Origin: a virus
Lineage: Duplodnaviria; Heunggongvirae; Uroviricota; Caudoviricetes
DNA length: 21,296 nt
Direction: 5' to 3' (one strand)
Virus record (IMG/VR): IMGVR_UViG_2695420380_000006
Positions 1-19,071 of the stretch are shown here, piece after piece; position 1 is the first letter of the stretch; each line of letters starts with the position of its first letter. The position numbers were made by a program, and so were the translations under genes. The notes under the pieces were generated by a model. The model searched no databases. It had not been told where the DNA came from and was given only the letters and a program-made list of their open reading frames with translations.

Positions 1-319
1 TACGCCGGACCACCGTTCCGCCGACCAGACTCTGTAGATCTTCCGCCATCCCGGTGACCATACCGTACAGGTTAGAAACCATCAGCGTGGGGCGCGTACT
101 GGTGCCTTTGCCATTCAGTTCAAAACCACTCCCCTGAATGGGATACGGCTGATACTGTCGCCCCTGCCAGGTGACCGGCTCACCTTTTTCGTTCTGCTCA
201 TTACAGAAAAAATAACGTTCACCACCGACCTCTGTCAGATCGATTTCCCAGAGCACCACGCTGGCCGACTGCTCCGCACGGGTGCATTCATTCAGTGTTT
301 CCTGCCGGATATCCTGCAT
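1..319 (-). CDS. L: Minor tail protein L (lambda gpL-like), partial; 3' end runs off the left edge of the window
   Basis: Minus-strand translation from the ATG at 319-317 reads MQDIRQETLNECTRAEQSASVVLWEIDLTEVGGERYFFCNEQNEKGEPVTWQGRQYQPYPIQGSGFELNGKG..., matching the lambda gpL N-terminus as I recall it. The start overlaps the M stop (TGATG). Not in the ORF track because the frame has no stop inside the window. Confidence 0.8.
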   Translation of the reverse strand, partial: MQDIRQETLNECTRAEQSASVVLWEIDLTEVGGERYFFCNEQNEKGEPVTWQGRQYQPYPIQGSGFELNGKGTSTRPTLMVSNLYGMVTGMAEDLQSLVGGTVVRR

Positions 320-648
320 CAGTTCACCACCTGTTCAAACTCTGCGCTGAACTCAACACGCAGCATACTGACCCGCGACGACCATTTTGCGCAGGTCACC
401 TTTATCTGCCGCCACTCATAAGGCGGCGTCCACAGAAAGGCTTTCCAGCCCCCGTGCTCTTCCAGAAACGACTCCAGTACCATGGCCTCCTCACGGGGGA
501 CAGAAAGCGTCACGCTGTACGTTTTCAGGTTGGCATTCAGCCCGGCAGGCGCTCGCTGGGAATAGCCATCACCAAAGCGCACCTTTCTTACAGAAGGGGC
601 CGAAGCCACATCCATACCGGGTTTCACTTTCCAGCGGAAGGTTTTCAT
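319..648 (-). CDS. M: Minor tail protein M (lambda gpM-like)
   Basis: 109-aa ORF (MKTFRWKVKPGMDVASAPSVRKVRFGDGYSQ...) of gpM size, sitting between H and L in lambda order; its ATG overlaps the H stop (ATGA). Confidence 0.85.
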   Translation of the reverse strand: MKTFRWKVKPGMDVASAPSVRKVRFGDGYSQRAPAGLNANLKTYSVTLSVPREEAMVLESFLEEHGGWKAFLWTPPYEWRQIKVTCAKWSSRVSMLRVEFSAEFEQVVN

Positions 649-3247
649 CGTCCACCTCCGGAGAACAGGCCACCATCACGCATCTGTGTCTGAATTTCAT
701 CACGGGCACCCTTGCGGGCCATGTCATACACGGCCTTCATCATCTGTGGACCTGGCAGACCATTCGTACCGTCGTTCTGAATCACCACGTGATTGTTCTG
801 ATTAAAATTAATGCCTTCAGCCCGCCGCATCTGCGCCGGACTTCCGGCACCGCCCACATAACCACCTTCCGCATAGCCGCGCATCAGCCGGTAGAGATTC
901 CCCACGCCAATCCGGCTGGTTGCCTCCTTCGTGAAGACAAATTCACCACGGTGAACAATCCCCGCTGGCTCATATTTGCCGCCGGTTCCCGTAAATCCCC
1001 CGGTTGCAAAATGGAATTTCGCCGCAGCGGCCTGAATGGCTGTACCACCTGACGCGGATGCGCCGCCACCAACAGCCCCGNNNNNNNNNNNGCGCTGCCG
1101 ATACTCCCGACTATCCCCACCATCGCCTGCTTCAGAAAAATCTCTGTNNNNNNNNNNNNNNNNATCTCTGTCAGCATGGACAGCACAGAACGGGTGAAAC
1201 CACGCCAGTTCTGTTCGCTGCCGATCAGCATCGCTGCCATATTCTGTGCAATACCGTCAAAGGTCTGCGTGGCCGCGTTTTTAACCTGCGAAAAACTGTC
1301 CGTCGCACTTTCCGCCCACTCGCCCCAGCCGGACTTCATCCCGGCCATCCAGCTTCCACGAAGCTGCTCCTCCGCAGACCAGGTGTTCTTCAGTGCAGAT
1401 GTGGCCTTCGCCAGCGCAGCCGGATTATCACCGTACACCTCACGAAGGCGCTGCTCTTCCGACTCCCGCTGCGCCTGACGGTCGGTGAGTCCGCGGGCTT
1501 TTGCGCTGATTGCCGCCTGCTTCGCGCTCTGCTGCTGTTCAAACCGCGCCGCCTGCTGTGCCAGCTCATTCAGCCGTTTCTGGTGTTCAATCTTGTCGCC
1601 CAGCTCAGCCAGCTGGCGTTTGTACTCCAGCGTTTCTTTCTCATGGGCCAGCAGGGATTTTTCCTGCTCAGATAACTGCCGTTTCGTGGCGGCCTCTTTC
1701 AGGACCACATACTGATTTTCCGCTTTCCATAAATCACGGCGCTGCTGGCTGATTTTTTCATTCGCACCGCTGTGCTTCTCCAGCGTCCTGAGCTCAGTTT
1801 CAAGCGCCAGCAGGGCTGCATGCGCCTGGTCTTCCTGGCGCTCACCGGCAGACACCTTCACACCGGACGGCTTTTTCTGCGTCGACTCATAATCCTTTTT
1901 TGCCGACGCCATCAGCGTGTTGTAATCCGCCTGCAGGATTTTCCCGTCTTTCAGGGCCTTATTCAGCTCTTCCTGCCGGGCGGTATATTTCTCCAGTGGC
2001 GTCAGCAGGCGCTCATACGCCTTCTGCGCCTCTCCGGTATACTTCAGCTGTGACGACTCACGCTCAGCCCTGTCCCTTGCCGCCAGTTCACCGGCTTTTT
2101 CCATATCCGACTGCAGCGTTGCCGCTGCCAGACCCAGACGGGCATTTTCCCGGTCATCCCATGCGCCCTGAAGGTTGGCCCGGAAAGAGGAGGTTTTACC
2201 GCGGCGCTGGCTCCGACTCTGGTACCACTGCCATTTTTTATCCGCCTCATCAAATGCCTTCTGCGCACTGGCGAGCATATCCGCTGAGGATTCCGGACGA
2301 CCGATATCCAGAATGGCATCCCACATCGATTTGAATGCCTTCCCTGTTTTATCCGCCCAGGTCTCCAGTGTTCCCATGTTTTCTTTCAGGCGACGGGTCT
2401 GCTCATCAAAGCCTTTCGTGGCGATATCGTTCGCCGCCTGCAATGCCCCGGCCTCGTCTCCGGAACGCTGCAGCTGTGCAACATACGCAATCTGCTCTGC
2501 CGTCACGTTACGGAACTGGCGCGCCATCGCCATCAGTCCCGACGTCGGGTCAGTGGTCAGCTTCCCGAAGGCTTCAGCGACTTTATCCACCTCCACACCG
2601 GATGCAGACGCAAAACGCGCGACACTCTGGTTGATGGCATCAAACTGTTCACCACCACGCACACCGGCATTCACCAGGGCTGCCAGTGACTCTCTCGCCT
2701 GGTTAAACGTCAGCCCTGCTGCCTGCCCGGCTCTTGAGAGAGTCAGCATACGATCGGCAGTCAGTCCGGACTGATTACCGGAAAGAACCAGGGTTTTATT
2801 AAACGCTGAAAGCGTGGAATCTCCCTGGTACCAGGCGTACACCAGTGCACCTGTCGCCACCGCCAGCGAGGTGACCCCGACCATCGGCAGGGTGATCGCA
2901 TCGGCAAGCCCCCTGAACATGGGGATCATCCCGCCGAAGGAGTCCTTCACCTGACCGCCCTGTTGCAGCAGGATCAGCCAGGGATTCTGACCACCGGCAA
3001 GCTGCGTGGCGATATCCGTAAACTGTGCGGGCAGGGTTCGCATGGCCGCTTTATACTGCCCGACGGAAATCCCGGCTTTTTGTGCAGCCAGCGCCTGGCG
3101 GCTCAGGCCCTGTTCAACAGCACTGGCGGTTTTTCTGGCGTCGGTATCCAGACCTGAAAAATGACGCCTTACCCGGCTCATCTGCTCATCGAAACGGACA
3201 GCATCCAGACTCAGGTCAATAACAAGATCACCAACCGGCTGGGACAT
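645..3247 (-). CDS. H: Tail tape measure protein H (copy 1), interrupted by N runs at 1081-1091 and 1148-1163
   Basis: Track ORF 884-3247 (MSQPVGDLVIDLSLDAVRFDEQM...) is the H body. Track ORF 645-905 (...GNLYRLMRGYAEGGYVG...DEIQTQMRDGGLFSGGGR) is the H C-terminus in another frame, and that frame is open back to 1080 (…GGKYEPAGIVHRGEFVFTKEATSRIGVGNLYRL). The apparent frameshift coincides with the two N runs, so it is very likely artefactual. Confidence 0.8.
925..1080. repeat. 156-bp segment of H copy 1 that is identical to 6876-7031 in H copy 2
   Basis: By base-by-base reading the two segments are identical, whereas adjacent homologous H sequence (1092-1147 vs 7043-7098) shows several mismatches. 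Confidence 0.7.
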
Positions 3248-4099
3248 ATCTCACACCTCCCGGAATCCCCGCTGAAGCCATCATTAATGCGGCATCATCC
3301 ACCATGACATCCGCCACATCCGCAGACGATAAAATATCGCGCCCTCCGTCCCCACCGAACCGGACGCCTCCGGCAAGTCCTGCCGCTTTCTGCATCAGCA
3401 TTTTGTCCTCATCCGGCCTCTCCACCTGCTCTTCCTCATGCCGGGGGACAAGCAGGCTGAAATCAGAGGGATGCATATCCGGATCGCAAAAAAACAGGCT
3501 GAGTACAGCGTACGTCAGCCCGGAAAAATGCATATCCAGCTGGGTATCCTGAAAATAATGCGTGCGGTAAAAACGGCGCCAGTCGGCATATTCGGTGGAT
3601 GTCATCCCGGCAAGCATGGCGCGCCAGTCGGGTCTCCCCATCTCACGCGCCAGTCTGAGGGCAAAGTTCAGCTCGCCGTCGAAGACTTTCCCGCAGAAAA
3701 ATCATCATCAGTCAGCGTGTTATTTTTCGCCACTTCAGTAATATCAGTATCCGGACGAACAGCTTCGATCATCCCGGACAGGCACAACACCACGTCTTCC
3801 GCCCGGGCAATGGCATCGGCAGGCCAGGTGGTGAGCACTTCCTGCTCTATCTTCATCACGGCCTCATTCATTGACGGTGACTGCGTTTTCTGTGGATGGT
3901 TATGCCACAGGGACATCGCCACCAGAAACGCGCCGGTTCTGACGAGATCTTCCACGCTTACCTGCAGGTTGCCGCTGGATTCTGCCTGTTCTGCACGCCG
4001 TTTCAGGAGGGCAAGATGCTCGATACGCTGCAGCGCAGACAATTCGGAAAGCGTGACAGACACACCGTTATATTCAAATTGTTCTGTTTTCAGAAACAT
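3228..4099 (-). CDS. T: Tail assembly chaperone G-T fusion (copy 1), made by -1 programmed ribosomal frameshift at 3686-3692
   Basis: The G frame (3668-4099) ends ...DDDFSAGKSSTAS*. The T frame (track ORF 3228-3641) is open upstream to the slippery heptamer. The minus strand reads GCG-GGA-AAG at plus 3686-3692 (ctttccc), the lambda-type G GGA AAG slip site. Confidence 0.75.
3668..4099 (-). CDS. G: Tail assembly chaperone G (copy 1)
   Basis: 143-aa ORF MFLKTEQFEYNGVSVTLSELSALQRIEHL..., lambda gpG-like, in the conserved position between V and T/H. Confidence 0.85.
   Translation of the reverse strand: MFLKTEQFEYNGVSVTLSELSALQRIEHLALLKRRAEQAESSGNLQVSVEDLVRTGAFLVAMSLWHNHPQKTQSPSMNEAVMKIEQEVLTTWPADAIARAEDVVLCLSGMIEAVRPDTDITEVAKNNTLTDDDFSAGKSSTAS
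3686..3692 (-). promoter_or_regulatory. Slippery heptanucleotide G GGA AAG for the G to G-T -1 frameshift (copy 1)
   Basis: Plus-strand ctttccc is minus-strand GGGAAAG, 6 codons before the G stop; the T frame is open from here. Confidence 0.75.
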
Positions 4100-4112
4100 G
4101 TATTACCTCCGT

Positions 4113-4865
4113 TTACCCTGCAGCGCCCGCTTCAGTAACGGTGACTTCAGCCACTGCGGCGAACTGACCATTTCCGCTCACCACAGGGATCTGCACCTTA
4201 CCTGTCGCCACGCCGTTTACCGTAATTGTCATATCTTTCACACTAATGGTGGCTTTCGACGGATCGGCGGAAACCGCTCTGAACGTCTTGTCGGTTGCAC
4301 TTTCCGGCTCAAAAGAAACCGTCAGGGTGGTTGTTTTCCCTTTTGCCACCGTACCGGATGTCGGCGTCACCTTAATCGCACTGACCGGCGTAATTTTGCT
4401 GCGTTCTTCCGCTACAGAAGGTTTACCCACGTTAGTGACTTTCACCGTGCGGGTGATCACTTCTTTCGCCGTCACGGCCTTACCGATACTGCTGACCCAG
4501 CCACGAAACACATCCACCGTGCCATTCGGAAAACGGATTTTATAGGCCCGGACATCGCCGCTTTCAACCCAGCCTATAAGCCCTTTCTGGCCTTCCTCTC
4601 CCGGTTTCCAGGCCAGCGTAAAACTGGTATCACCTGCAGATTTCTGCCCCTGCCCGGTCGCGCTCCAGTCCGCGTCTTCATCATCCAGGTAGTTATCATC
4701 ATAGGATTCAGCCGTCATCTCGCCCGGCGTCAGATCCTTCACCTTAGCCAGTCGCTGCCAGTCATCGTCTGACAACGGGTTTGCATAAGCATCAGCCTTG
4801 CCGTTGTAAACCCACAGAGTGGTACCGGCACCTTTTACCGGCTCCAGGGGATTTGGTGTTGCCAT
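4113..4865 (-). CDS. V: Major tail tube protein V (copy 1)
   Basis: 250-aa [39 protein letters not shown]..., lambda gpV-like including the C-terminal Ig-like region; sits between U and G. Confidence 0.85.
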
Positions 4866-4872
4866 ATCGTCC

Positions 4873-5268
4873 TCACATCTCGTATGTAATGGAATAAGTC
4901 AGATCCGCAGAGCTCCATAACGCCATATCGTCATCACGACGATACTCATAGCCCTGCGTAACCATCGTGGTAATCAGTCCTGCCAGTGCAGGGATCGCAG
5001 TCATCGCCGGATAAATCCGGCTTTCCATCCACTGATCGAGCTCCGAATCAGGTACCTGTGCCGGTAAAAACACCTCAATATGCAGTGTGGCCCGCCAGGT
5101 ATCTGCATCCAGCTCTTCACCGGTATACTCTGCATCCGTCAGATAAACCGCGATCGCAGGAAAATCCTCTTCGTCAAAAACAACGGGGCGACCATCAAAC
5201 AGCGTCGCCCCGTGTTCATGCTGCTCGAGTGCATCCAGCACTGCGGCACGAATGTCAGTGTGTTTCAT
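4873..5268 (-). CDS. U: Tail tube terminator protein U (copy 1)
   Basis: 131-aa [46 protein letters not shown]..., lambda gpU-like; its start overlaps the Z stop. Confidence 0.85.
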
Positions 5269-5840
5269 CGTTTTATCGCAATCCTCAGTTGTTGTTTCAG
5301 CGCGTATGCCAGTTCTTTAGGCAGGCGTTCACGCCGGATACGGTCAACATTCTCATCAAATGCCTGTTTCAGTGGGGCCGCCATCGGGATTTTCACCACC
5401 TGAATGGGAAGGCGATTACGCTTTTTCCTTCCCTTGTCGTCATTGCCCTCCTCATATCTGGCCTGGGGAAGACGTTGCATAACATGCCAGCGCCCATTAT
5501 TTAATCGCTGGATAAATGCCCGCTGATAACGATGCTGACCGGCTTTGAGTATGCTGTTCGGACGACGCCCCAGCATTCTGATCCCCAGCTTAATCACAGG
5601 GAGATCACCGCGGTTAACGATAATTCTGGCATTCGGATTTCTGACCGTCGCCCGTTTCAGTCTGGACCGTTCCTTTACCAGTTTCCGTCTCACCCTGGTT
5701 TCCCGGGCAACCTGTGACGAAGACTGATTAATCGCCGTTGTGGCCACGCGGTTAATGGTCATTGCAGAAGCAGCCGGAATGGCGTTTTTACGAACCCGGC
5801 TCAGATTGTCAATCGCCTGATCAAGCCCTTTTATCGCCAT
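5265..5840 (-). CDS. Z: Tail completion protein Z (copy 1)
   Basis: 191-aa ORF MAIKGLDQAIDNLSRVRKNAIPAASAMTINRVA..., lambda gpZ-like. Confidence 0.85.
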   Translation of the reverse strand: MAIKGLDQAIDNLSRVRKNAIPAASAMTINRVATTAINQSSSQVARETRVRRKLVKERSRLKRATVRNPNARIIVNRGDLPVIKLGIRMLGRRPNSILKAGQHRYQRAFIQRLNNGRWHVMQRLPQARYEEGNDDKGRKKRNRLPIQVVKIPMAAPLKQAFDENVDRIRRERLPKELAYALKQQLRIAIKR

Positions 5841-5854
5841 AATTCACCCTGCGT

Positions 5855-5929
5855 TTATCGTCGCCGGTTAACTGCGGGTGGTTGCCCACGGTTGAGCCAG
5901 AGATAACAGCTGCCCCCGTCATCCGGAGA
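5855..5929 (-). pseudogene. FII: FII-like (head-tail joining) gene remnant; only the last ~24 codons remain, 5' part replaced by the IS element
   Basis: Minus-strand translation of 5929-5855 gives ...SPDDGGSCYLWLNRGQPPAVNRRR*, which parallels the C-terminus of the intact FII at 11734-12087 (...SPDDGGSCHLWLGRGVPPAVNRRR*). The reading frame runs directly into the IS terminus at 5930. Confidence 0.7.
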
Positions 5930-6874
5930 TGTCAGCGCCAGTGATATAAGACGGTAATTCGCCATTTGGATTGTCCGCTCCACCCAACATGTTGTTTCCT
6001 TAAGGTTCTCACACCAGAAAGGACATCAACATGCTGAGCAGAGAGGACTTTTACATGATAAAGCAAATGCGCCAGCAGGGCGCGTACATCGTCGATATTG
6101 CGACTCAGATTGGTTGCTCTGAACGGACGGTCAGACGCTACCTCAAATACCCTGAACCGCCAGCCAGAAAGACCCGCCACAAAATGGTTAAGCTGAAACC
6201 GTTTATGGATTACATCGACATGCGCCTGGCAGAGAATGTCTGGAATAGCGAGGTTATCTTCGCGGAGATTAAGGCAATGGGTTATACGGGCGGACGTTCC
6301 ATGCTGCGTTACTACATCCAGCCCAAACGTAAAATGCGTCCGTCAAAAAGAACAGTTCGCTTCGAAACTCAGCCTGGATACCAGCTCCAGCATGACTGGG
6401 GCGAAGTTGAGGTGGAGGTTGCCGGGCAACGGTGCAAAGTTAACTTGGCGGTTAATACGCTGGGGTTCTCCCGCAGCTTCCATGTCTTCGCCGCACCAAA
6501 ACAGGATGCTGAGCATACCTACGAATCACTGGTTCGCGCCTTCCGCTACTTCGGTGGTTGTGTGAAAACGGTGCTGGTTGATAACCAGAAGGCTGCGGTG
6601 CTGAAGAATAACAACGGGAAAGTCGTGTTCAACTCCGGATTCCTGTTGCTGGCTGACCACTATAACTTCCTGCCACGGGCATGCCGTCCACGCAGGGCCA
6701 GAACAAAAGGTAAGGTTGAGCGGATGGTGAAATACCTCAAGGAGAACTTCTTCGTCCGGTACCGCAGGTTCGACAGCTTCACTCATGTCAATCAACAACT
6801 GGAGCAATGGATAGCCGATGTGGCTGACAAACGGGAGCTTCGCCAGTTCAAAGAAACGCCGGAACAGCGCTTCG
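5930..6874 (+). mobile_element. IS21-family (IS100-like) insertion sequence, 5' fragment only (left terminus plus truncated istA); no istB or right terminus
   Basis: Begins TGTCAGCGCCAGTG... immediately after the FII remnant. Encodes the first ~281 codons of an IstA-type transposase and ends at the ambiguous base 6875, where H-homologous sequence starts. IS100-like assignment is from recalled IstA sequence, not a search. Confidence 0.7.
6031..6874 (+). pseudogene. istA: IS21-family transposase IstA, 3'-truncated
   Basis: Track ORF 6031-6885 (MLSREDFYMIKQMRQQGAYIVDIATQIGCSERTVRRYLKY...QFKETPEQRF) has an HTH N-terminus and an IS21/IS100-type IstA body. Full-length IstA is about 340 aa as I recall it, and here the frame is cut at the 6875 junction. 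Confidence 0.75.
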
Positions 6875-6875
6875 N

Positions 6876-7031
6876 TCCTTCGTGAAGACAAATTCACCAC
6901 GGTGAACAATCCCCGCTGGCTCATATTTGCCGCCGGTTCCCGTAAATCCCCCGGTTGCAAAATGGAATTTCGCCGCAGCGGCCTGAATGGCTGTACCACC
7001 TGACGCGGATGCGCCGCCACCAACAGCCCCG
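6876..7031. repeat. 156-bp segment of H copy 2 that is identical to 925-1080; begins right after the ambiguous junction base
   Basis: See 925-1080. Confidence 0.7.
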
Positions 7032-9157
7032 CCAATGGCGCTGCCGATACTCCCGACAATCCCCACCATTGCCTGCTTAAGCAGAATTTCTGTCATCATG
7101 GACAGCACGGAGCGGGTGAAGCTGCGCCAGTTCTGTTCACTGCCGGTCAGCATCGCCGCCATATTCTGTGCAATACCATCAAAGGTCTGCGTGGCTGCAC
7201 TTTTAACCTGTGACATACTGTCCGTGGCGCTCTCTTCCCACTCACTCCAGCCGGACTTCAGGCCTGCCATCCAGCTCCCGCGAAGCTGGTCTTCAGCCGC
7301 CCAGGTCTTTTTCTGCTCTGACATGACGTTATTCAGCGCCAGAGGATTATCGCCATACTGTTCCTTCAGGCGCTGTTCCGTGGCTTCCCGCGCTGCCTGC
7401 CGGTCAGTCAGCCCCCGGTTTTTCGCATCAATGGCTGCCCGTTTTGCCCGTTGCTGCTGTGCGAATTTATCCGCCTGCTGCGCCAGCGCATTCAGGTGCT
7501 CCTGATACGTAACCTTGTCACCAAGTGCAGCCAGCTGGCGTTTGTACTCCAGCGTCTCGTCTTTATGCGCCAGCAGGGATTTCTCCTGTGCGGACAGCTG
7601 GCGACGTTGTGCCGCCTCCTCCAGTACCGCGAACTGACTTTCTGCCTTCCACAAATCCCGGCGCTGCTGGCTGATTTTCTCATTCGCTCCGGCATGCTTC
7701 TCCAGCGTCCGGAGTTCTGCCTGAAGCGTCAGCAGGGCCGCATGAGCACTGTCTTCCTGACGATCGCCCGCATACACCTTCACGCCGGACTGTTTCGGCT
7801 TTTTCAGCGTCGCTTCATAATCCTTTTTCGCCGCCGCCATCAGCGTGTTGTAATCTGCCTGCAGGATTTTTCCGTCTTTCAGTGCCTTGTTCAGTTCTTC
7901 CTGACGGGCGGTATATTTCTCCAGCGGCGTCTGCAGCCGTTCGTAAGCCTTCTGCGCCTCTTCGGTATATTTCAGCCGTGACGCTTCGGTATCGCTCTGC
8001 TGCTGCGCTTTTTTGTCCTGTTGACGCTGTTGATCTACCCTCTTTTGGGCTGCATCCCGCTCCAGGCGTTTTTTTTCACGATCATCCCAGTAACGCGCCC
8101 GTGCTTCATCGTTAACGAAATAATCATCCTTGCGCAGATTCCAGATGTCGTCTGCTTTCTTAAACGCAGCCTCTGCCTTAATCAGCATCTCCTGCGCGGT
8201 ATTAGGACGACCAATATCCAGCACCGCATCCCACATGGATTTGAATGCACGTGCAGTCCTGTCTGCCCAGGTCTCCAGCGTGCCCATGTTCTCTTTCAGG
8301 CGGCGGGTCTGGTCATCAAACCCTTTCGTTGCGGCCTCGTTCGCCGCCTGCAATGCCCCGGCTTCATCGCCGGAACGCTGCAACTGAGCAACATACGCAA
8401 TCTGCTCCGCCGTCACGTTATGGAACTGGCGTGCCATCGCCGTCAGCCCCGACGTCGGGTCTGTGGTCAGCTTCCCGAAGGCTTCAGCGACCTTGTCCAC
8501 CTCCACGCCGGATGCAGAGGAGAAACGCGCCACACTCTGGCTGATGGACGCAATCTGAGCCTCACCGCTTACCCCCGCCTTAACCAGTGCGCTGAGTGAC
8601 TCGCTGGTCTGGTTAAACGTCAGCCCTGCCGCCTGCCCGGCTCTGGACAGGACCAGCATACGATCTGCCGTCAGTCCCGCCTGATTACCGGAAAGGACCA
8701 GCGTTTTGTTGAAATCGGACAGGGTTGAGTTGCCCTGATACCAGGCATACGCCAGCGCACCGGTCGCCACCGCCAGCGAGGTGGCCCCCACCATCGGCAG
8801 GGTGATCGCGCCGGCAAGCCCCCTGAACATGGGGATCATCCCGCCGAAGGAGTCCTTAACCTGACCACCCTGTTGCAGCAGGATCAGCCAGGGATTCTGC
8901 CCCCCTGCAAGCTGCGTGGCCACGTCGGTGAACTGTGCAGGCAGCATACGCATGGCGGCTTTATACTGCCCGACGGAAATCCCCGCTTTCTGTGCAGCCA
9001 GCGCCTGTCGGCTCAGCGACTGTTCAACGACTGCCGCTGTTTTTTTCGCATCACTTTCCGTACCGGAAAAATGACGCCTGACTCTGGCCATCTGCTCGTC
9101 AAATCTGGCCGCATCCAGACTCAAATCAACGACCAGATCGCCTACCGGTTCAGCCAT
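6876..9157 (-). CDS. H: Tail tape measure protein H (copy 2, lambda-like), 3'-truncated at the 6875 junction
   Basis: Track ORF 6848-9157 (MAEPVGDLVVDLSLDAARFDEQMARVRRHFSG...GGKYEPAGIVHRGEFVFTK) follows lambda gpH as I recall it up to the junction. The last ~90 codons present in copy 1 (645-924) are missing. Confidence 0.8.
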
Positions 9158-9988
9158 ACCGGACTCCTCCTGCGATCCCTTCTGATACTGTCATCAGCAT
9201 TACGTCATCCTCCGTCATGTCCGCCACATCCGGGGAAGCGGGGATAACTTCATTCCCGTCCGGGCCAAAGCGGACACCTCCGGCAAGCCCTGCCGCTTTC
9301 TGCATCAGCACATCATCTTCAGGCTCTTCGTCAGCCTCGCGCCGGTTCAGCAGACTGAAATCCAGCGGATGCATCTCCGGATCGCTGAAAAACAGGCTGA
9401 GCACGGTGTACGTCAGCCCGGAAAAGTGCATATCCAGCAGAACATCATGAAAATAATGGGTACTGTAAAAGCGGTGCCAGTCGGCATACTCCGTGGATGA
9501 CATCCCGGCAAGCATGGCGCGCCAGTCGGGTCGCCCCATCTCACGCGCCAGTTTCAGGGCAAAACTCAGCTCACCGTCGAACACTTTCCCGCAGAAACAG
9601 GCTCTGCAGGCCCGGCGTCCTCTGCCTGTTCAGGAGCATCATTCACCACAAACTCATACATACCGGACAGCCGGTACACCACGTTTTCAGCATGAGAAAT
9701 TGCCTCTGTGGGCCAGGTGGTAAGCACTTCCTGCTCAATCTGTTTAACGGCTTCATTCATGGACGGCATCTGCGTCTTCTTCGGATGGTTATGCCACAGG
9801 GACATCGCAACCACAAAAGCGCCGGTTCTGATGGCGTCTTCCACAGTAAACTTCCGGTTGCTGTCTGACTCCGCCTGTTCTGCCTGCCGTTTCATCAGGT
9901 CGAGATGCTCAATACGCTGCAGGGCTGACAGTTCAGAAAGCGTGACGGTCACACCGTTATGTTCAAATGATTCGGTTTTCAGGAACAT
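9150..9988 (-). CDS. T: Tail assembly chaperone G-T fusion (copy 2), made by -1 programmed frameshift at 9584-9590
   Basis: G frame 9566-9988, T frame track ORF 9150-9584; plus-strand ctttccc at 9584-9590 is minus-strand GGGAAAG. Confidence 0.75.
9566..9988 (-). CDS. G: Tail assembly chaperone G (copy 2)
   Basis: 140-aa ORF MFLKTESFEHNGVTVTLSELSALQRIEHLDLMKR..., lambda gpG-like. Confidence 0.85.
   Translation of the reverse strand: MFLKTESFEHNGVTVTLSELSALQRIEHLDLMKRQAEQAESDSNRKFTVEDAIRTGAFVVAMSLWHNHPKKTQMPSMNEAVKQIEQEVLTTWPTEAISHAENVVYRLSGMYEFVVNDAPEQAEDAGPAEPVSAGKCSTVS
9584..9590 (-). promoter_or_regulatory. Slippery heptanucleotide G GGA AAG for the G to G-T -1 frameshift (copy 2)
   Basis: Same heptamer and same spacing to the G stop as in copy 1. 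Confidence 0.75.
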
Positions 9989-10003
9989 CGCTGACTCTCC
10001 GGA

Positions 10004-10744
10004 TTAACTGGCGGTGACGTTGATTTCTGCAACCGCAGCAAACTCACCATTACCAGATACGACCGGAATGTTGACCTTGCCTGCAGCAACACCTTTCACG
10101 GTGATGGTCATACCACTGACCGACACGGTGGCTTTTGTTTTATCCGCAGACACCGCACGGAAGCTCTTGTCGGTTGCGCCATCCGGCTGGAATGCCACGG
10201 TCAGCGTGGTGCTCTGCCCTTTCACTACGGAAGCACTGGCGGGTGTCACCGTCATGCCGGTCGTCGCCGTCACCGTGCTGCGATCTTCTGCCATCGACGG
10301 ACGTCCCACATTGGTGACCTTCACCGTGCGGGTAATCACCTCCTTCGCCGTCACCGCCTTACCGATACTGCTGACCCAGCCACGGAACACATCGACCGTG
10401 CCGTTCGGGAAGCGGATTTTATAGGCACGGGTATCACCTTCATTAAACCACGCCAGCAGCGCCTGCTGCCCCTGCTCTCCGGGCATCCACGCCAGCGTGA
10501 AGCTGGTATCTCCGGCAGATTTCTGCCCCTGCCCGGTCGCAGTCCAGTCTGCATCTTCATCATCGAGATAGCTGTCGTCATAGGACTCAGCGGTCAGTTC
10601 GCCGGGCGTCAGGTCTTTAACTTTTGCCAGACGCGACCAGTCAACGTCTGAAAGCGGGTTCGCATAAGGGTCACCGCTCCCCTTATAAACCCACAGGGTG
10701 GTCCCGGCACCTTTCACCGGCATTGTAGGATTTGGTACAGGCAT
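10004..10744 (-). CDS. V: Major tail tube protein V (copy 2, lambda-like)
   Basis: Track ORF 10004-10774; the likely true start is the internal [36 protein letters not shown]..., which matches the lambda gpV N-terminus. Confidence 0.85.
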
Positions 10745-10751
10745 AGCGTCC

Positions 10752-11147
10752 TCACATTTCATAGATAATGACATAAGTCAGATCGGCTGAACTCCACAGG
10801 CCCGCATCATCGTCGCGCCGGTAGTCATAGCCGCTGGCCACCATACTGGTGATCAAATCTGACAGTGCCGGGATATCGCTCATCACCGGATAAATCCGGG
10901 ACTCCATCCACGAATCCAGCTCTGAATCCGGCACCTGAGCAGGCAGGAAAACTTCAATATGCAGCTCCGCCTGCCAGGTATCGCTGTCCAGCTCTTCGCC
11001 CGTGTATTCAGCGCCGGTGAGATAAACGGCAATTGCCGGAAAATCTTCCTCATCAAAAACAGCGGGGCGACCATCAAAAAGCGTCGCCCCGGTGTCATGC
11101 TTCTCCAGTGCATCCAGTACGGCTGCACGGAGTTCAGTATGTTTCAT
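10752..11147 (-). CDS. U: Tail tube terminator protein U (copy 2)
   Basis: 131-aa [46 protein letters not shown]..., lambda gpU-like. Confidence 0.85.
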
Positions 11148-11722
11148 CGCTTTATTACCATTCTCAGTTGATGCTGCAGCGCATAGCCCAGCTCTTTCGG
11201 AAGACGTTCACGCCGTATCCGTTCAATATTCTGTTTAAACGCCGTGGTCAGCGGCACCGCCATCGGGATTTTCACCACATCAATGGGGTAACGGTTTTTC
11301 CCGGCCACACGCTGCATAACATGCCACCGGCCGTTTTTCAGTTGCTGAATAAACGCGCCGGGAATACGACGGTTACCCACCACAAGCACGCTGCCGCCAC
11401 CTTTCAGGGATGAACGCTGCCCCTTTTTATGACGCCTGCGGCGGGACAGGACAACCCGCGCATTACCCAGCTTGATTACGGGCAAATCCCCCCGGTTAAC
11501 TTTGATTCTGGCCTGCGGATTTTTGACCGTGGCCCTTTTCAGCCTGGCCCTTTCCTTTACCAGTTTCCGGCGTACCTTTGTCTCACGGGCAACCTGTGAC
11601 GCAGACTGCGATATCGCGGATGAAGCAACGCGGTTAATGGCCATTGCGGCGGCACCGGGCACCGCCGTTTTGCTGATACGGCTGAGGTTTTCAACGGCCT
11701 GCTCAAGACCTTTTATGGCCAT
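11144..11722 (-). CDS. Z: Tail completion protein Z (copy 2)
   Basis: 192-aa ORF MAIKGLEQAVENLSRISKTAVPGAAAMAINRVA..., lambda gpZ-like. Confidence 0.85.
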   Translation of the reverse strand: MAIKGLEQAVENLSRISKTAVPGAAAMAINRVASSAISQSASQVARETKVRRKLVKERARLKRATVKNPQARIKVNRGDLPVIKLGNARVVLSRRRRHKKGQRSSLKGGGSVLVVGNRRIPGAFIQQLKNGRWHVMQRVAGKNRYPIDVVKIPMAVPLTTAFKQNIERIRRERLPKELGYALQHQLRMVIKR

Positions 11723-11733
11723 ACATCCCCCTT

Positions 11734-12087
11734 TCAGCGGCGACGGTTAACGGCAGGCGGTACGCCCCGTCCAAGCCAGAGATGACAACTTCCGCCATCA
11801 TCCGGCGAAACCCGATCTACCCAGAAATTTTCCTCACCGATGGTCAGCGTGTCTCCACGCCGCAGCTGCCGCACCTCATCAGTCCGGACAAACAGGGACG
11901 GGCTGGAGCCTTCAACGCGCACGCCCTGTCCGGCATAGCTGATATTTTCAGGGTCATCAAAAACACCACGTATCACCGCACCTGACTGCTCACCGGATGT
12001 CATGGTGGCTGACGTTCCCATGTACCCGCGTATCGTTTCATCGGCGCGGGCAATGGCAGCATCGAACAGGTTATCGAAATCAGCCAC
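11734..12087 (-). CDS. FII: Head-tail joining protein FII
   Basis: 117-aa ORF MADFDNLFDAAIARADETIRGYMGTSATMTSGEQSGAVIRGVFDDPENISYAGQGVRVEGS..., lambda gpFII-like. Confidence 0.85.
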   Translation of the reverse strand: MADFDNLFDAAIARADETIRGYMGTSATMTSGEQSGAVIRGVFDDPENISYAGQGVRVEGSSPSLFVRTDEVRQLRRGDTLTIGEENFWVDRVSPDDGGSCHLWLGRGVPPAVNRRR

Positions 12088-12098
12088 AGCGCCTCCCG

Positions 12099-12497
12099 TT
12101 ATTGCATTCTGGCCAGGCCGCGCTCTGTCATTTCGGCTGCCACACCGGCAGAGACACGAAACGCCGTTCCCGGCAGCACAAATGCCACAGGTTTATCCCG
12201 CGTGGCGTGAAGTGCATCAGTATGCAGCGTCACCAGTGCCACGACCGTGACCAGTTCAGCCGTATCCTGAATCACGGTATCCGGCTGCGCTGATACCACC
12301 TCATTTTCATGCCCGGTCAGCACATTTTCCCGGCTGAGAGGGGTGTCCTGACCGGCAGTTTCATCCGTGTCATCAAGCTCTTCTTCCAGCTCTGCCACAC
12401 GAAGCGCCAGTTCTTCTTTCGTTCCCGTCAAACTGACATCGCGGTTCAATTGCTCACCCAGCTCCTGAAGACGGGCAATCAGTTCATCTTTCGTCAT
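12099..12497 (-). CDS. FI: DNA-packaging / head assembly protein FI
   Basis: Track ORF 12099-12536 has a 13-aa N-terminal extension. The internal ATG (MTKDELIARLQELGEQLNRDVSLTGTKEELALRVAEL...) is preceded by GGAGGA with 5-nt spacing and gives a lambda gpFI-like 132-aa product. Confidence 0.8.
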   Translation of the reverse strand: MTKDELIARLQELGEQLNRDVSLTGTKEELALRVAELEEELDDTDETAGQDTPLSRENVLTGHENEVVSAQPDTVIQDTAELVTVVALVTLHTDALHATRDKPVAFVLPGTAFRVSAGVAAEMTERGLARMQ

Positions 12498-12518
12498 GAA
12501 CTCCTCCACAGAGAGAAA

Positions 12519-12536
12519 ATGGCCCCGAAGGGCCAT
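12519..12536 (-). terminator. Intercistronic stem-loop between E and FI: AUGGCCC-UUCG-GGGCCAU on the late mRNA, followed by a U/C-rich tract
   Basis: Perfect 7-bp GC-rich inverted repeat with a UUCG tetraloop, starting 2 nt after the E stop codon and ahead of the FI ribosome-binding site. Confidence 0.5.
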
Positions 12537-12538
12537 GA

Positions 12539-13564
12539 TTACGCCAGTTGAACGGACACGAACTCATCAGGATCAGCCAGCAGCATCAGCGGTGCTGACT
12601 GAATCATGGTGAACTCACGCGCCGGATCGCCGGTGGTCACCCAGTTTTTCGGGTAACGGGCAGAGGCGTTAATGCCTTCGCGCTGTGCGTCCGCATCCTG
12701 AATGCAGCCATAGGTGCGCAGACCGCGAGCCTGAGTGTTCCCCAGCACCATCGTGTTGTCCGGCAGGAAGTTCTTTTTGACGCCGTTTTCCACGTACTGT
12801 CCGGAATACACGACGATGGCCACATCGCCATACATTCCCTTATAGGACACCGCTTTGCCCAGGTCTTTTACCGCTGTCTCCAGCTCGGAATGAGAGCCGC
12901 GACGGGTATCCAGCTTCTCCTTGACGGCTTTGAAGGAACGGAACAGCGCCCAGCCTTTCGGGTCAAACACGATGATATTCACCACACCGCTGGCGTTCAG
13001 CGCGTAGGCTTCGATATCGTCGGTCGGGTCATACGTGGACTTGTCACGCTTGCTCCACTCCGTGACGCCGGACTGTGTGATGTTGTTCGCCGCACTGCGG
13101 CCCATATCCACCTCAACCGGATCGAAGGCTTCACCGGTCATGGTGTATTTGCCCTTGAGCACGGCAGAAACTGCCTGCATCTCTTCGACCTGAGCAATGG
13201 CCAGCTCTTCGTCACGCATGTTCTGCATGATGATGCGACGGCGGCGGTAAGCCGGGTCCGCCAGATTCTGCGGATCTTCATCCGGCAGGCGACGCAGGGT
13301 CATCTGCGGATTCACCTCATGCTTGGGTTTGACATATCCCGGCGTAAATTCAGAGGTGGAGCCGCCACGGGAACGGATAACCTCACCGGAAACAATCGGC
13401 GAAACGTACAGCGCCATGTTTACCAGTCCCGGAATTTGTGAGAGATAGACTTTCTCCGTAGTGAAGGGATAGCTCTCACGGAAAAAGAGACGCAGAAACA
13501 GCGGATCAAACTTAAATTTCTGCTCATTTGCCGCCAGCAGCTGGGCGGTTGTGTACATCGACAT
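12539..13564 (-). CDS. E: Major capsid protein E
   Basis: Track ORF 12539-13591; the likely true start is the internal MSMYTTAQLLAANEQKFKFDPLFLRLFFRESYPFTTEKVYLSQ..., lambda gpE-like. The 9-aa upstream extension overlaps the intergenic hairpin and is unlikely to be translated. Confidence 0.9.
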   Translation of the reverse strand: MSMYTTAQLLAANEQKFKFDPLFLRLFFRESYPFTTEKVYLSQIPGLVNMALYVSPIVSGEVIRSRGGSTSEFTPGYVKPKHEVNPQMTLRRLPDEDPQNLADPAYRRRRIIMQNMRDEELAIAQVEEMQAVSAVLKGKYTMTGEAFDPVEVDMGRSAANNITQSGVTEWSKRDKSTYDPTDDIEAYALNASGVVNIIVFDPKGWALFRSFKAVKEKLDTRRGSHSELETAVKDLGKAVSYKGMYGDVAIVVYSGQYVENGVKKNFLPDNTMVLGNTQARGLRTYGCIQDADAQREGINASARYPKNWVTTGDPAREFTMIQSAPLMLLADPDEFVSVQLA

Positions 13565-13577
13565 AAAAAAATCCCGT

Positions 13578-13599
13578 AAAAAAAGCCGCACAGGCGGCC
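13578..13599 (-). terminator. Intercistronic terminator-like hairpin between D and E: GGCCGC-CUGU-GCGGC followed by U7, then ACGGGA-U7 directly before the E start codon
   Basis: GC stem at 13585-13598 with a T-tract at 13578-13584 on the minus strand; a second T7 run lies at 13565-13571 immediately upstream of the E ATG. Confidence 0.5.
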
Positions 13600-13619
13600 T
13601 TTAGTGATGAAGGGTAAAG

Positions 13620-13765
13620 TTAAACGATGCTGATTGCCGTTCCGGCAAACACGGTCCGTTTTTTCGTCTCGTCNNNNNNNNNNCGTCTCGTCGCTGGCAG
13701 CCTCCGGCCAGAGCACATCCTCATAACGGAACGTGCCGGACTTGTAGAACGTCAGTGTGGTGCTG
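13620..13765 (-). CDS. D: Head decoration protein D, visible C-terminal part only; the 5' part lies in the 282-N run and a 10-N run interrupts the last codons
   Basis: Minus-strand translation of the visible sequence gives ...STTLTFYKSGTFRYEDVLWPEAASDET[N run]DETKKRTVFAGTAISIV*, a lambda gpD-like C-terminus with stop at 13620-13622. Confidence 0.75.
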
Positions 13766-14047
13766 NNNNNNNNNNNNNNNNNNNNNNNNNNNNNNNNNNN
13801 NNNNNNNNNNNNNNNNNNNNNNNNNNNNNNNNNNNNNNNNNNNNNNNNNNNNNNNNNNNNNNNNNNNNNNNNNNNNNNNNNNNNNNNNNNNNNNNNNNNN
13901 NNNNNNNNNNNNNNNNNNNNNNNNNNNNNNNNNNNNNNNNNNNNNNNNNNNNNNNNNNNNNNNNNNNNNNNNNNNNNNNNNNNNNNNNNNNNNNNNNNNN
14001 NNNNNNNNNNNNNNNNNNNNNNNNNNNNNNNNNNNNNNNNNNNNNNN

Positions 14048-14434
14048 CCGGGTTACCTGCAGCCAGCGGTGCCGGTGCCCCCTGCATCAGACGATCCAGC
14101 GCAGTGTCACTGCGCGTCTGTGCACTCTGTGGTGCTGCGGCCAGAATACGGCGGGGCGGNNNNNNNNNNNNNNNNNNNNNNNNNNNNNNGTTTCCACGGT
14201 CATACCGGGGGTTTCGGCCAGCACGCGTGCCTGTTCTTCGCGTCCGTGAGCCTCCTCACAGTTGAGGATCCCCATAATGCGACTGTTTTCTGCCGCAACC
14301 GCTGCGGTGATCTGCGCGTTCACGTCCGGCTGCGCCGCGCTGGCGTTCTCGCCCTCCGTCGCTTGCACCACGCCAGTAACGTCAGCCTGCGAAGCAGTGG
14401 CTGAAACAGTTGTTGATTGAGTCTCTTTGGTCAT
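14048..14434 (-). CDS. Nu3: Scaffolding protein Nu3, nested in-frame in the 3' part of C (internal start at 14434); 3' end masked
   Basis: Internal ATG at 14432-14434 preceded by AGGAGG with 4-nt spacing (minus strand CAGGAGGGCGA-ATG-ACC), giving MTKETQSTTVSATASQADVTGVV... In lambda, Nu3 is the in-frame C-terminal segment of C. Confidence 0.6.

Positions 14435-15358: not shown

Positions 15359-19071
<3,713 letters not shown>

What the first reader, a model, noticed from the sequence alone, without database searches (positions are those of the whole stretch)
5855..6875. Truncated IS21-family element bridges a disrupted FII gene and a truncated tape-measure gene, with an ambiguous base at the breakpoint
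The IS left end (TGTCAGCGCC..., 5930) lies inside an FII-like gene, leaving only its last 24 codons. The element then stops mid-istA at 6874, after about 281 codons, with no istB and no right terminus, and is fused to H copy 2, which loses about 90 C-terminal codons. Both partners are cut at a single n (6875), with short microhomology (cttcg on the IS side, ccttcg on the H side). This is either an IS-mediated deletion or recombination that fused two phage modules, or a chimeric assembly join. If real, the upstream lambda-like module has no intact H, M, L or distal tail genes of its own and would depend on the downstream module.
Basis: seen in the sequence. Interest (0 to 1): 0.6.

Follow-up and report, generated by a model that had tools for sequence, protein, structure and literature searches.

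The report
Scaffold misjoin, not an IS-mediated fusion
The apparent fusion of a cut-off insertion sequence to a cut-off phage tape-measure gene is a false join between two contigs in a draft scaffold; only the insertion of the IS into the phage FII gene is real, and that is ordinary.

Summary
An IS21-family left end lies at 5930, inside an FII gene that keeps its last 24 codons. istA stops after 281 codons at 6874. There is one N at 6875. The tape-measure gene H2 lacks its last 93 codons. But the junction is an assembly artefact. The window is a draft scaffold with seven N-runs. Window 6876-7031 is repeated exactly at 925-1080, and the "missing" H2 end, plus M and part of L, sits at 1-924. Three finished chromosomes and one sister draft place window 1-924 directly next to 6876, giving an intact 853-aa H. 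A finished chromosome (CP032523.1) that is 99.965% identical to window 1164-6874 reads straight past 6874. There istA is intact, istB is cut at IS position 1821 by a complete IS600, and phage lysis genes follow. So block 1092-6874, from a second and defective prophage, was wrongly placed inside prophage 2's H gene. It is bounded by gaps at a 29-nt H1/H2 identity and in the IS. Sister scaffolds join the two prophages by single Ns at other points. The FII::IS21 insertion is real and shared by a lineage. The fusion, and the idea that one tail module depends on the other, are not supported. Interest is low.

The parts
5855..5929 (-). Remnant of the prophage-1 (P1) FII gene (head-tail joining): last 24 codons plus stop. 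This is a real truncation caused by the IS insertion.
   Evidence: The translation equals the C-terminus of the 117-aa FII in L010. Phage homology in E. coli genomes stops exactly at 5929. The same junction is in 7 IMG/VR contigs and in the finished CP032523.1.
5930..6874 (+). Positions 1-945 of a 2130-bp IS21-like element: left inverted repeat (5930-5940) and istA codons 1-281 (6031-6873). The right-hand end at 6874 is a contig or gap-fill end, not a biological truncation.
   Evidence: 99.9% identical to complete copies annotated istA/istB. IRs and TSD seen in L002. L004 and L011 carry the same FII junction and continue to IS position 1821.
6875..6875 (.). Single N: a residual scaffold gap that marks a false join between two contigs.
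   Evidence: One of 7 N-runs in the window. No junction-spanning match in 5,426 complete E. coli genomes, in the GTDB species representatives or in IMG/VR. Each flank continues differently in finished relatives.
6876..9157 (-). Codons 1-760 of the prophage-2 (P2) tape-measure gene H2. The gene is intact in reality; its remainder is at window 645-924.
   Evidence: 99.6-99.7% identical to finished chromosomes L020, L022 and L023, where H is 853 aa. The rebuilt ORF is intact.
6876..7031 (.). 156 nt that duplicate window 925-1080 exactly. The same genomic segment is represented twice in the scaffold.
   Evidence: 0 mismatches in 156 nt; multiple alignment.
645..1080 (-). The true 3' end of H2: the last 93 codons at 645-924, plus the 156-nt overlap at 925-1080. 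It is followed by M (319-648) and part of L of P2.
   Evidence: Window 1-924 maps to L020rc 5949-6872, directly next to window 6876 at L020rc 6873. Contiguous in L006. Only 80.6% identical to the P1 H/M/L region of the finished relative.
1081..1091 (.). N-run where the scaffold switches from H2-type to H1-type sequence. It lies within a 29-nt stretch that is identical in H1 and H2. This is the other false boundary of the misplaced block.
   Evidence: Alignment. The longest shared stretch is CCGCCAATGGCGCTGCCGATACTCCCGAC.
1092..5854 (-). P1 (defective prophage) tail genes: H1 codons 1 to about 715 (with a zero-length gap written as 16 N at 1148-1163), then T, G, V, U and Z. Together with 5855-6874 this forms the misplaced block.
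   Evidence: 99.965% identical to the finished CP032523.1 over 1164-6874. About 78% identical to P2. The flanks of the 16-N run overlap by 8 nt.

Best explanation
The window is a draft, short-read scaffold of an E. coli/Shigella-type genome that carries two lambda-like prophages.

- P2 is a complete morphogenesis module. It occupies window 1-1080 and 6876 onwards.
- P1 is a defective prophage whose FII gene was hit by an IS21-like element. It occupies window 1092-6874.

Contigs broke at two repeats: a 29-nt stretch that is identical in the two tape-measure genes, and the multi-copy IS. A scaffolder then placed the 5.8-kb P1 block inside P2's H gene. Gap filling walked from both edges into the supposed gap, about 900 nt into the IS from the left and 156 nt into H2 from the right.

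Shown:
- the exact duplication in the window;
- the read-through of both flanks in finished relatives;
- the inconsistent single-N joins in sister scaffolds.

Inferred: the particular software behaviour (SSPACE/GapFiller-like).

The real biology, taken from near-identical finished and sister sequences, is this order: P1 lysis genes, a complete IS600, the IS21-like element (positions 1821 to 1, with istA intact and istB cut), the last 24 codons of FII, then Z, U, V, G, T, H1. This is an ordinary IS-degraded prophage that has lost its head genes.
For: - Seven N-runs lie in 21 kb.
- Window 925-1080 equals 6876-7031 with 0 mismatches in 156 nt. Joining 9157..6876 to 924..645 gives an intact tape-measure ORF ending ...RDGGLFSGGGR*, like the references.
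- In the finished chromosomes CP104423.1, CP180280.1 and CP044191.1, window 1-924 lies immediately next to window 6876, with H of 853 aa followed by M, L, K, I and J. The sister draft L006 shows the same.
- The finished CP032523.1 matches window 1164-6874 with 2 mismatches in 5711 nt. It continues past 6874 through an intact 390-aa istA to IS position 1821, then IS600, then holin, SASA esterase and Q. Contig L004 is identical in structure.
- The scaffold switches from H2-type to H1-type exactly at the N-run 1081-1091, inside a 29-nt H1/H2 identity.
- Four sister contigs with the same FII::IS junction stop 35-48 nt into the IS, which is typical of a repeat break.
- Two sister scaffolds join P1 and P2 through single Ns at quite different points.
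- Neither junction occurs in 5,426 complete E. coli genomes.
- Other gaps in the window have flanks that overlap by 8 and 9 nt but were left unmerged, and a 68-nt loss sits at a 10-nt repeat. This fits a gap filler that merges only at 10 nt or more (PMC3446322). The authors of one such pipeline state that these greedy tools can make false joins (PMC5320598).
Against: - No reads are available, so the join cannot be disproved directly for this particular isolate.
- The finished and sister genomes are near-identical relatives, not the same strain.
- I could not show which assembler or scaffolder was used. The GapFiller paper does not state explicitly that one N is left behind.
- L008 also places P2 distal-tail DNA after P1's IS edge in the same orientation, though 1.1 kb further out. 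This could hint at a recurrent read-pair link between the two regions, which I attribute to shared repeats.
Confidence: 0.94

Rival explanations
1. A real IS-mediated deletion or illegitimate recombination in this isolate fused istA (codon 281) to H2 (codon 760). The result would be a hybrid element in which one head/tail module lacks its distal tail genes.
For: - IS-rich lineages, here carrying an IS21-like element and IS600, do suffer such rearrangements, and P1 itself has lost its head genes next to ISs.
- A 5-nt CTTCG lies on both sides of the N.
Against: - The junction is an N in a scaffold with six other N-runs.
- The supposedly deleted H2 end is present in the same scaffold with an exact 156-nt overlap.
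- Both flanks read through in near-identical finished genomes.
- Two separate copies of CTTCG are not the signature of microhomology-mediated joining, and the chance level is 4%.
- No such junction occurs in any collection searched.
Confidence: 0.02
2. The contig order is right but the gap is under-estimated. P1's IS end would truly lie upstream of P2's H in the chromosome, with unsequenced DNA hidden behind the N.
For: The sister scaffold L008 also puts P2 distal-tail sequence after P1's IS edge in the same orientation.
Against: - In finished relatives the DNA to the left of window 6876 is window 1-924 (the H end, M, L) and then K, I, J. It is not an IS.
- The DNA to the right of the IS21-like element is IS600 and lysis genes.
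- The scaffold already places H2's true left neighbour (1-1080) on the far side of the P1 block, so at least one of the two joins must be wrong.
- L006 joins the two prophages in a different way.
Confidence: 0.03
3. The N is only an ambiguous base call inside one continuous, correctly assembled contig.
For: It is a single character, unlike the other N-runs of 10-282.
Against: - Homology to the IS ends at 6874 and homology to H2 starts at 6876, to the base.
- Sister scaffolds from the same lineage use single Ns as contig joiners.
- There is the 156-nt duplication.
Confidence: 0.01

Closest known systems
False scaffold joins and partly filled gaps in short-read bacterial drafts (paired-read scaffolding followed by edge-wise gap filling, e.g. 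SSPACE + GapFiller; PMC5320598, PMC3446322)
   Same: - Contig ends lie at repeats (the IS, and a 29-nt identity between paralogous genes).
- N-runs have estimated lengths.
- Unmerged overlaps of 8-9 nt flank some gaps.
- Sequence has been extended into the gap from both edges.
- The partners are unrelated to what finished relatives show.
   Different: The software used for this record is unknown. The single residual N is attributed to such a tool from my own knowledge, not from a tool result.
IS21 family insertion sequences (istA transposase plus istB helper ATPase)
   Same: - The left terminus and 281 istA codons are 99.9% identical to complete 2130-bp copies.
- Those copies have an istA of 390 aa, an istB of 265 aa, 11-nt terminal IRs and 4-bp flanking repeats.
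   Different: - In this window only positions 1-945 are represented.
- In the lineage's real copy, istB is cut at position 1821 by IS600 and the right terminus is absent.
IS-degraded defective lambdoid prophages of E. coli/Shigella
   Same: - P1 keeps tail genes Z to I and late/lysis genes.
- It has lost Rz through most of FII next to nested ISs (IS21-like and IS600).
   Different: Nothing unusual. The same structure is already present in a finished public chromosome.
Phage lambda tail tape-measure protein gpH
   Same: - The rebuilt H2 is 853 aa.
- The identical-length protein in finished relatives carries PF06791 and PF09718.
- It sits in lambda gene order: G, T, H, M, L.
   Different: In the scaffold the gene is split into two non-adjacent pieces with a 156-nt overlap. 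This is an artefact.

Membership tests
IS21 family insertion sequence | Two consecutive genes: istA (DDE/rve transposase) followed by istB (AAA+ helper ATPase) | tested here: met
   The complete copy L002 has istA of 390 aa and istB of 265 aa, annotated by RefSeq. The 390-aa product in L011 hits PF00665 rve and PF22483. The window holds only istA codons 1-281.
IS21 family insertion sequence | Terminal inverted repeats at both ends | tested here: met
   IRs are TGTCAGCGCCA and TGTCAACGCCA in L002, and the element is 2130 bp. The window has the left IR at 5930-5940. The right end is absent from the window, and from the lineage's P1 copy.
IS21 family insertion sequence | Short target-site duplication (4-8 bp) flanking a transposed copy | tested here: inconclusive
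   TATA flanks both ends in L002. At the FII site this cannot be tested, because the right end was removed by IS600 and the adjacent deletion.
Scaffold gap / false join (assembly artefact) | The junction coincides with N, and homology of both flanks ends exactly there | tested here: met
   IS homology runs to 6874, N is at 6875, and H homology starts at 6876.
Scaffold gap / false join (assembly artefact) | Each flank continues into different sequence in finished genomes of near-identical relatives | tested here: met
   IS side: CP032523.1 and L004. H2 side: CP104423.1, CP180280.1, CP044191.1 and L006.
Scaffold gap / false join (assembly artefact) | The sequence said to be deleted is present elsewhere in the same scaffold and overlaps the contig end | tested here: met
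   Window 925-1080 equals 6876-7031 exactly, and the H2 end lies at 645-924.
Scaffold gap / false join (assembly artefact) | No reads span the junction | not testable with these tools
   No read data are available.
Lambda gpH-type tape measure protein (for H2) | TMP_2 (PF06791) and Tape_meas_lam_C (PF09718) domains, with the gene lying between G/T and M | tested here: met
   Precomputed Pfam hits on the 853-aa product of L020, L022 and L024, with the gene order G, T, H, M, L. Window 6876-13765 is 99.6-99.7% identical to L020, L022 and L023 and 97.2% to L024. The rebuilt ORF is intact.

The most novel reading that the evidence does not exclude
This particular isolate, unlike its finished relatives, really carries the P1 block (H1 5' part to FII'::IS21-like 1-945) inserted into P2's tape-measure gene, with a 156-bp duplication. 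That would make a hybrid H1/H2 tape-measure gene plus a truncated H2 fused to istA, and both junctions would happen to fall on assembly gaps.
Probability: 0.02. Interest if true: 0.25.

Novelty: not a real feature. Interest (0 to 1): 0.04.

Why it matters
It matters mainly as a caution. Taken at face value, the scaffold suggests a truncated IS, a truncated tape-measure gene, and one prophage module that depends on another. None of these exists. Any annotation of this record would call three false pseudogenes: an istA fragment, H2 lacking its C-terminus, and a chimeric H1/H2 "copy 1". The real features are routine for E. coli/Shigella genomes and are already present in finished public chromosomes. 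They are an IS21-like insertion in FII with a nested IS600 and loss of head genes in one prophage, alongside an intact lambda-like morphogenesis module in the other.

Tried and rejected
- I searched for the IS/H2 junction, allowing any base at the N, in GTDB representative genomes and in IMG/VR, and found nothing.
- I searched for the FII::IS junction in GTDB representatives and in metagenome contigs, and found nothing. It was found only in IMG/VR and, through the exact Z protein, in one finished NCBI chromosome.
- My first idea was that H2's break point corresponds to the N-run at 1148-1163 in H1. The alignment rejected this: 6876 corresponds to 925, and the switch between prophages is at 1081-1091.
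- A look-up of the V2 ORF from its first ATG failed because that start is wrong. It succeeded with the start 10 codons downstream.
- A literature search for CP032523, to name the organism, found nothing. "Shigella-like" is therefore only an inference. It rests on IS600, on the junction being absent from 5,426 complete RefSeq E. coli genomes, and on chromosome sizes of 4.7-5.0 Mb.
- Microhomology-mediated joining was considered and rejected. There are two separate CTTCG copies, and the chance level is 4%.
- The GapFiller paper was read for a statement that a single N is left when extensions fail to overlap. It describes filling from both edges and the 10-nt merge rule, but does not state this explicitly.

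Full report
**Observation**

- On the - strand, 5855-5929 encodes the last 24 residues and stop of a lambda FII-type head-tail joining protein. They are identical to the C-terminus of an intact 117-aa FII (PF05354) in related prophages.
- At 5930 the sequence TGTCAGCGCCA begins. From there to 6874 the window is 99.9% identical to many complete copies of an IS21-like element.
- One complete copy (L002) is 2130 bp. It has istA of 390 aa, istB of 265 aa, terminal inverted repeats TGTCAGCGCCA/TGTCAACGCCA, and TATA on both flanks.
- In the window, istA starts at 6031 and runs for 281 codons, so the element stops at IS position 945.
- Position 6875 is N.
- From 6876, homology to lambda-type tape-measure genes begins on the - strand, 280 nt (93 codons) short of the stop.
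- The CTTCG "microhomology" exists, but as two separate copies. A shared 5-mer within 10 nt of a random junction in this window occurs 4% of the time.

**What the window is**

The window has seven N-runs: 1081-1091, 1148-1163, 6875, 13674-13683, 13766-14047, 14160-14189 and 15391-15555. It is therefore a draft scaffold.

It holds two lambda-like modules on the - strand, about 78% identical to each other.
- P1 occupies 1092-5929: the 5' part of H1, then T, G, V, U, Z and the FII remnant.
- P2 runs from 6876 onward: H2, T, G, V, U, Z, FII, FI, E, D, the protease, the portal, W, A and Nu1.

None of 5,426 complete E. coli genomes contains the IS/H2 junction or the FII/IS junction.

**The IS side reads through in relatives**

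The FII::IS junction was found in seven IMG/VR contigs.
- Four of them are plain contigs that stop 35-48 nt into the IS. This is how short-read contigs end at a multi-copy repeat.
- One, L004, continues. The IS is 100% identical to the reference copy through position 945 and on to position 1821. There a complete IS600 follows (L004 about 2009-3272, with its own inverted repeats). After that come the holin, a DUF1327 gene, a SASA-family esterase, a methylase and Q of a lambdoid late region.

The exact Z protein of P1 then led to a finished chromosome, CP032523.1 (L011), with the same layout. Window 1164-6874 matches it with 2 mismatches in 5711 nt, colinear through the FII junction and ending exactly at 6874. 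The finished sequence simply continues with the rest of istA.

So the IS insertion in FII is real and shared by a lineage. In that lineage istA is intact, istB is cut by IS600, and P1 has lost Rz through most of FII.

**The H2 side also reads through, and the missing piece is in the window**

- Window 925-1080 is identical to 6876-7031, with 0 mismatches in 156 nt.
- A five-way alignment shows that window 880-1080 is H2-type sequence, identical to the sister draft L006. After the N-run 1081-1091 the scaffold becomes H1-type, identical to the finished P1 sequence.
- That N-run lies in a 29-nt stretch, CCGCCAATGGCGCTGCCGATACTCCCGAC, which is identical in H1 and H2.
- Joining 9157..6876 to 924..645 gives an intact tape-measure ORF with the normal C-terminus, its stop overlapping the M start.
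- In the finished chromosomes CP104423.1, CP180280.1 and CP044191.1, window 1-924 maps immediately next to window 6876. H there is 853 aa and is followed by M, L, K, I and J. L006 shows the same continuity.
- Window 1-1147 is only 80.6% identical to the H-end/M/L region of the finished P1, so it does not belong to P1.

**Conclusion on the junction**

The 5.8-kb P1 block (1092-6874) sits in the scaffold between two overlapping pieces of one P2 gene, and both of its boundaries are gaps. At least one join must be false. Finished relatives contradict both.

Sister scaffolds of the same lineage use single Ns to join the same two prophages at other points.
- L006 joins P2's V gene to P1's L/M region.
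- L008 joins the IS edge, 39 nt into the element, to P2's L gene.

The joins are therefore not reproducible.

**Likely mechanism (inferred)**

1. Contigs broke at the 29-nt H1/H2 identity and at the IS.
2. A paired-read scaffolder made a false join.
3. An edge-wise gap filler extended both contig ends into the presumed gap until only one N was left. It went about 900 nt further into the IS than plain contigs reach, and 156 nt back into H2.

Other features of the window point the same way.
- Two N-runs are really zero-length gaps. Their flanks overlap by 8 and 9 nt and were left unmerged.
- A 68-nt segment of the finished sequence is missing at a 10-nt direct repeat next to the 165-N gap.

GapFiller fills from both edges and merges only at overlaps of 10 nt or more (PMC3446322). 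The authors of a widely used bacterial pipeline state that SSPACE and GapFiller are greedy and can make false joins (PMC5320598). I could not establish which software produced this record. That a single N is what remains after failed closure comes from my own knowledge.

**Comparison with the known, and novelty**

The junction is not a biological feature. The real features are all ordinary and already present in finished public genomes.
- An IS21-family insertion in FII.
- A nested IS600 with loss of head genes in one prophage.
- An intact lambda-type morphogenesis module in the other.

The organism is probably a Shigella-type lineage of E. coli. The grounds are the IS600 content, the absence of the FII::IS junction from all complete RefSeq E. 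coli genomes, and its presence in other finished chromosomes of 4.7-5.0 Mb. This is an inference only (one search found no paper naming the record).

**Verdict**

- The biological interpretation is not supported.
- Interest is very low.

Noticed in passing
window 884-3247 (- strand), with N-runs at 1081-1091 and 1148-1163: The ORF that looks like "H copy 1" is a chimera. Its 5' part (3247 to 1092) is H1 of the defective prophage. Its 3' part (1080 and below) is H2 of the other prophage. H1's own 3' end, M and L are not in the window; the finished relative has them at only 80.6% identity to window 1-1147.
   Followed up: yes
window 1140-1171 and 13665-13692: The 16-N and 10-N runs are not real gaps. 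Their flanks overlap by 8 nt (ATCTCTGT) and 9 nt (CGTCTCGTC), and finished relatives show continuous sequence. The Ns and the duplicated bases would create false frameshifts in H1 and in a head gene.
   Followed up: yes
window 15556-15669, next to the 165-N run at 15391-15555: Relative to three finished chromosomes, 68 nt are missing with no N, between two copies of a 10-nt direct repeat (GCTTCCTGAA). The 165 Ns stand for only 55 nt. This is probably a false gap closure at a 10-nt overlap. It would frameshift the head gene (portal/protease region) called across it.
   Followed up: partly
L004 188-3272 and L011 (CP032523.1, locus coordinates 5871-8810): In the lineage's real P1 prophage, the IS21-like element is cut in istB at IS position 1821 by a complete 1264-bp IS600. 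All genes from the lysozyme/Rz region through most of FII are absent. P1 is thus a defective prophage with no head genes, keeping only its late-regulation genes, a partial lysis region (holin) and its tail genes.
   Followed up: partly
L028 (GCA_900159865.1, contig FUBD01000096.1) 14146-15187: Another draft contig of the P2 prophage shows two tandem copies of the M gene (109 aa each), with window 1-950 and 240-1147 both aligning. This is probably another assembly artefact in the same repeat-prone region.
   Followed up: no
L009 (IMGVR_UViG_2698536458_000001) 4793-5934: In this N-free sister contig, H1 is H1-type across the 29-nt identity. Further downstream it becomes much closer to the window's P2-type M/L sequence (95.8% overall, against 80.6% for the finished P1). 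This suggests either real mosaic exchange of distal tail genes between the two prophages in some strains, or a chimeric contig.
   Followed up: no
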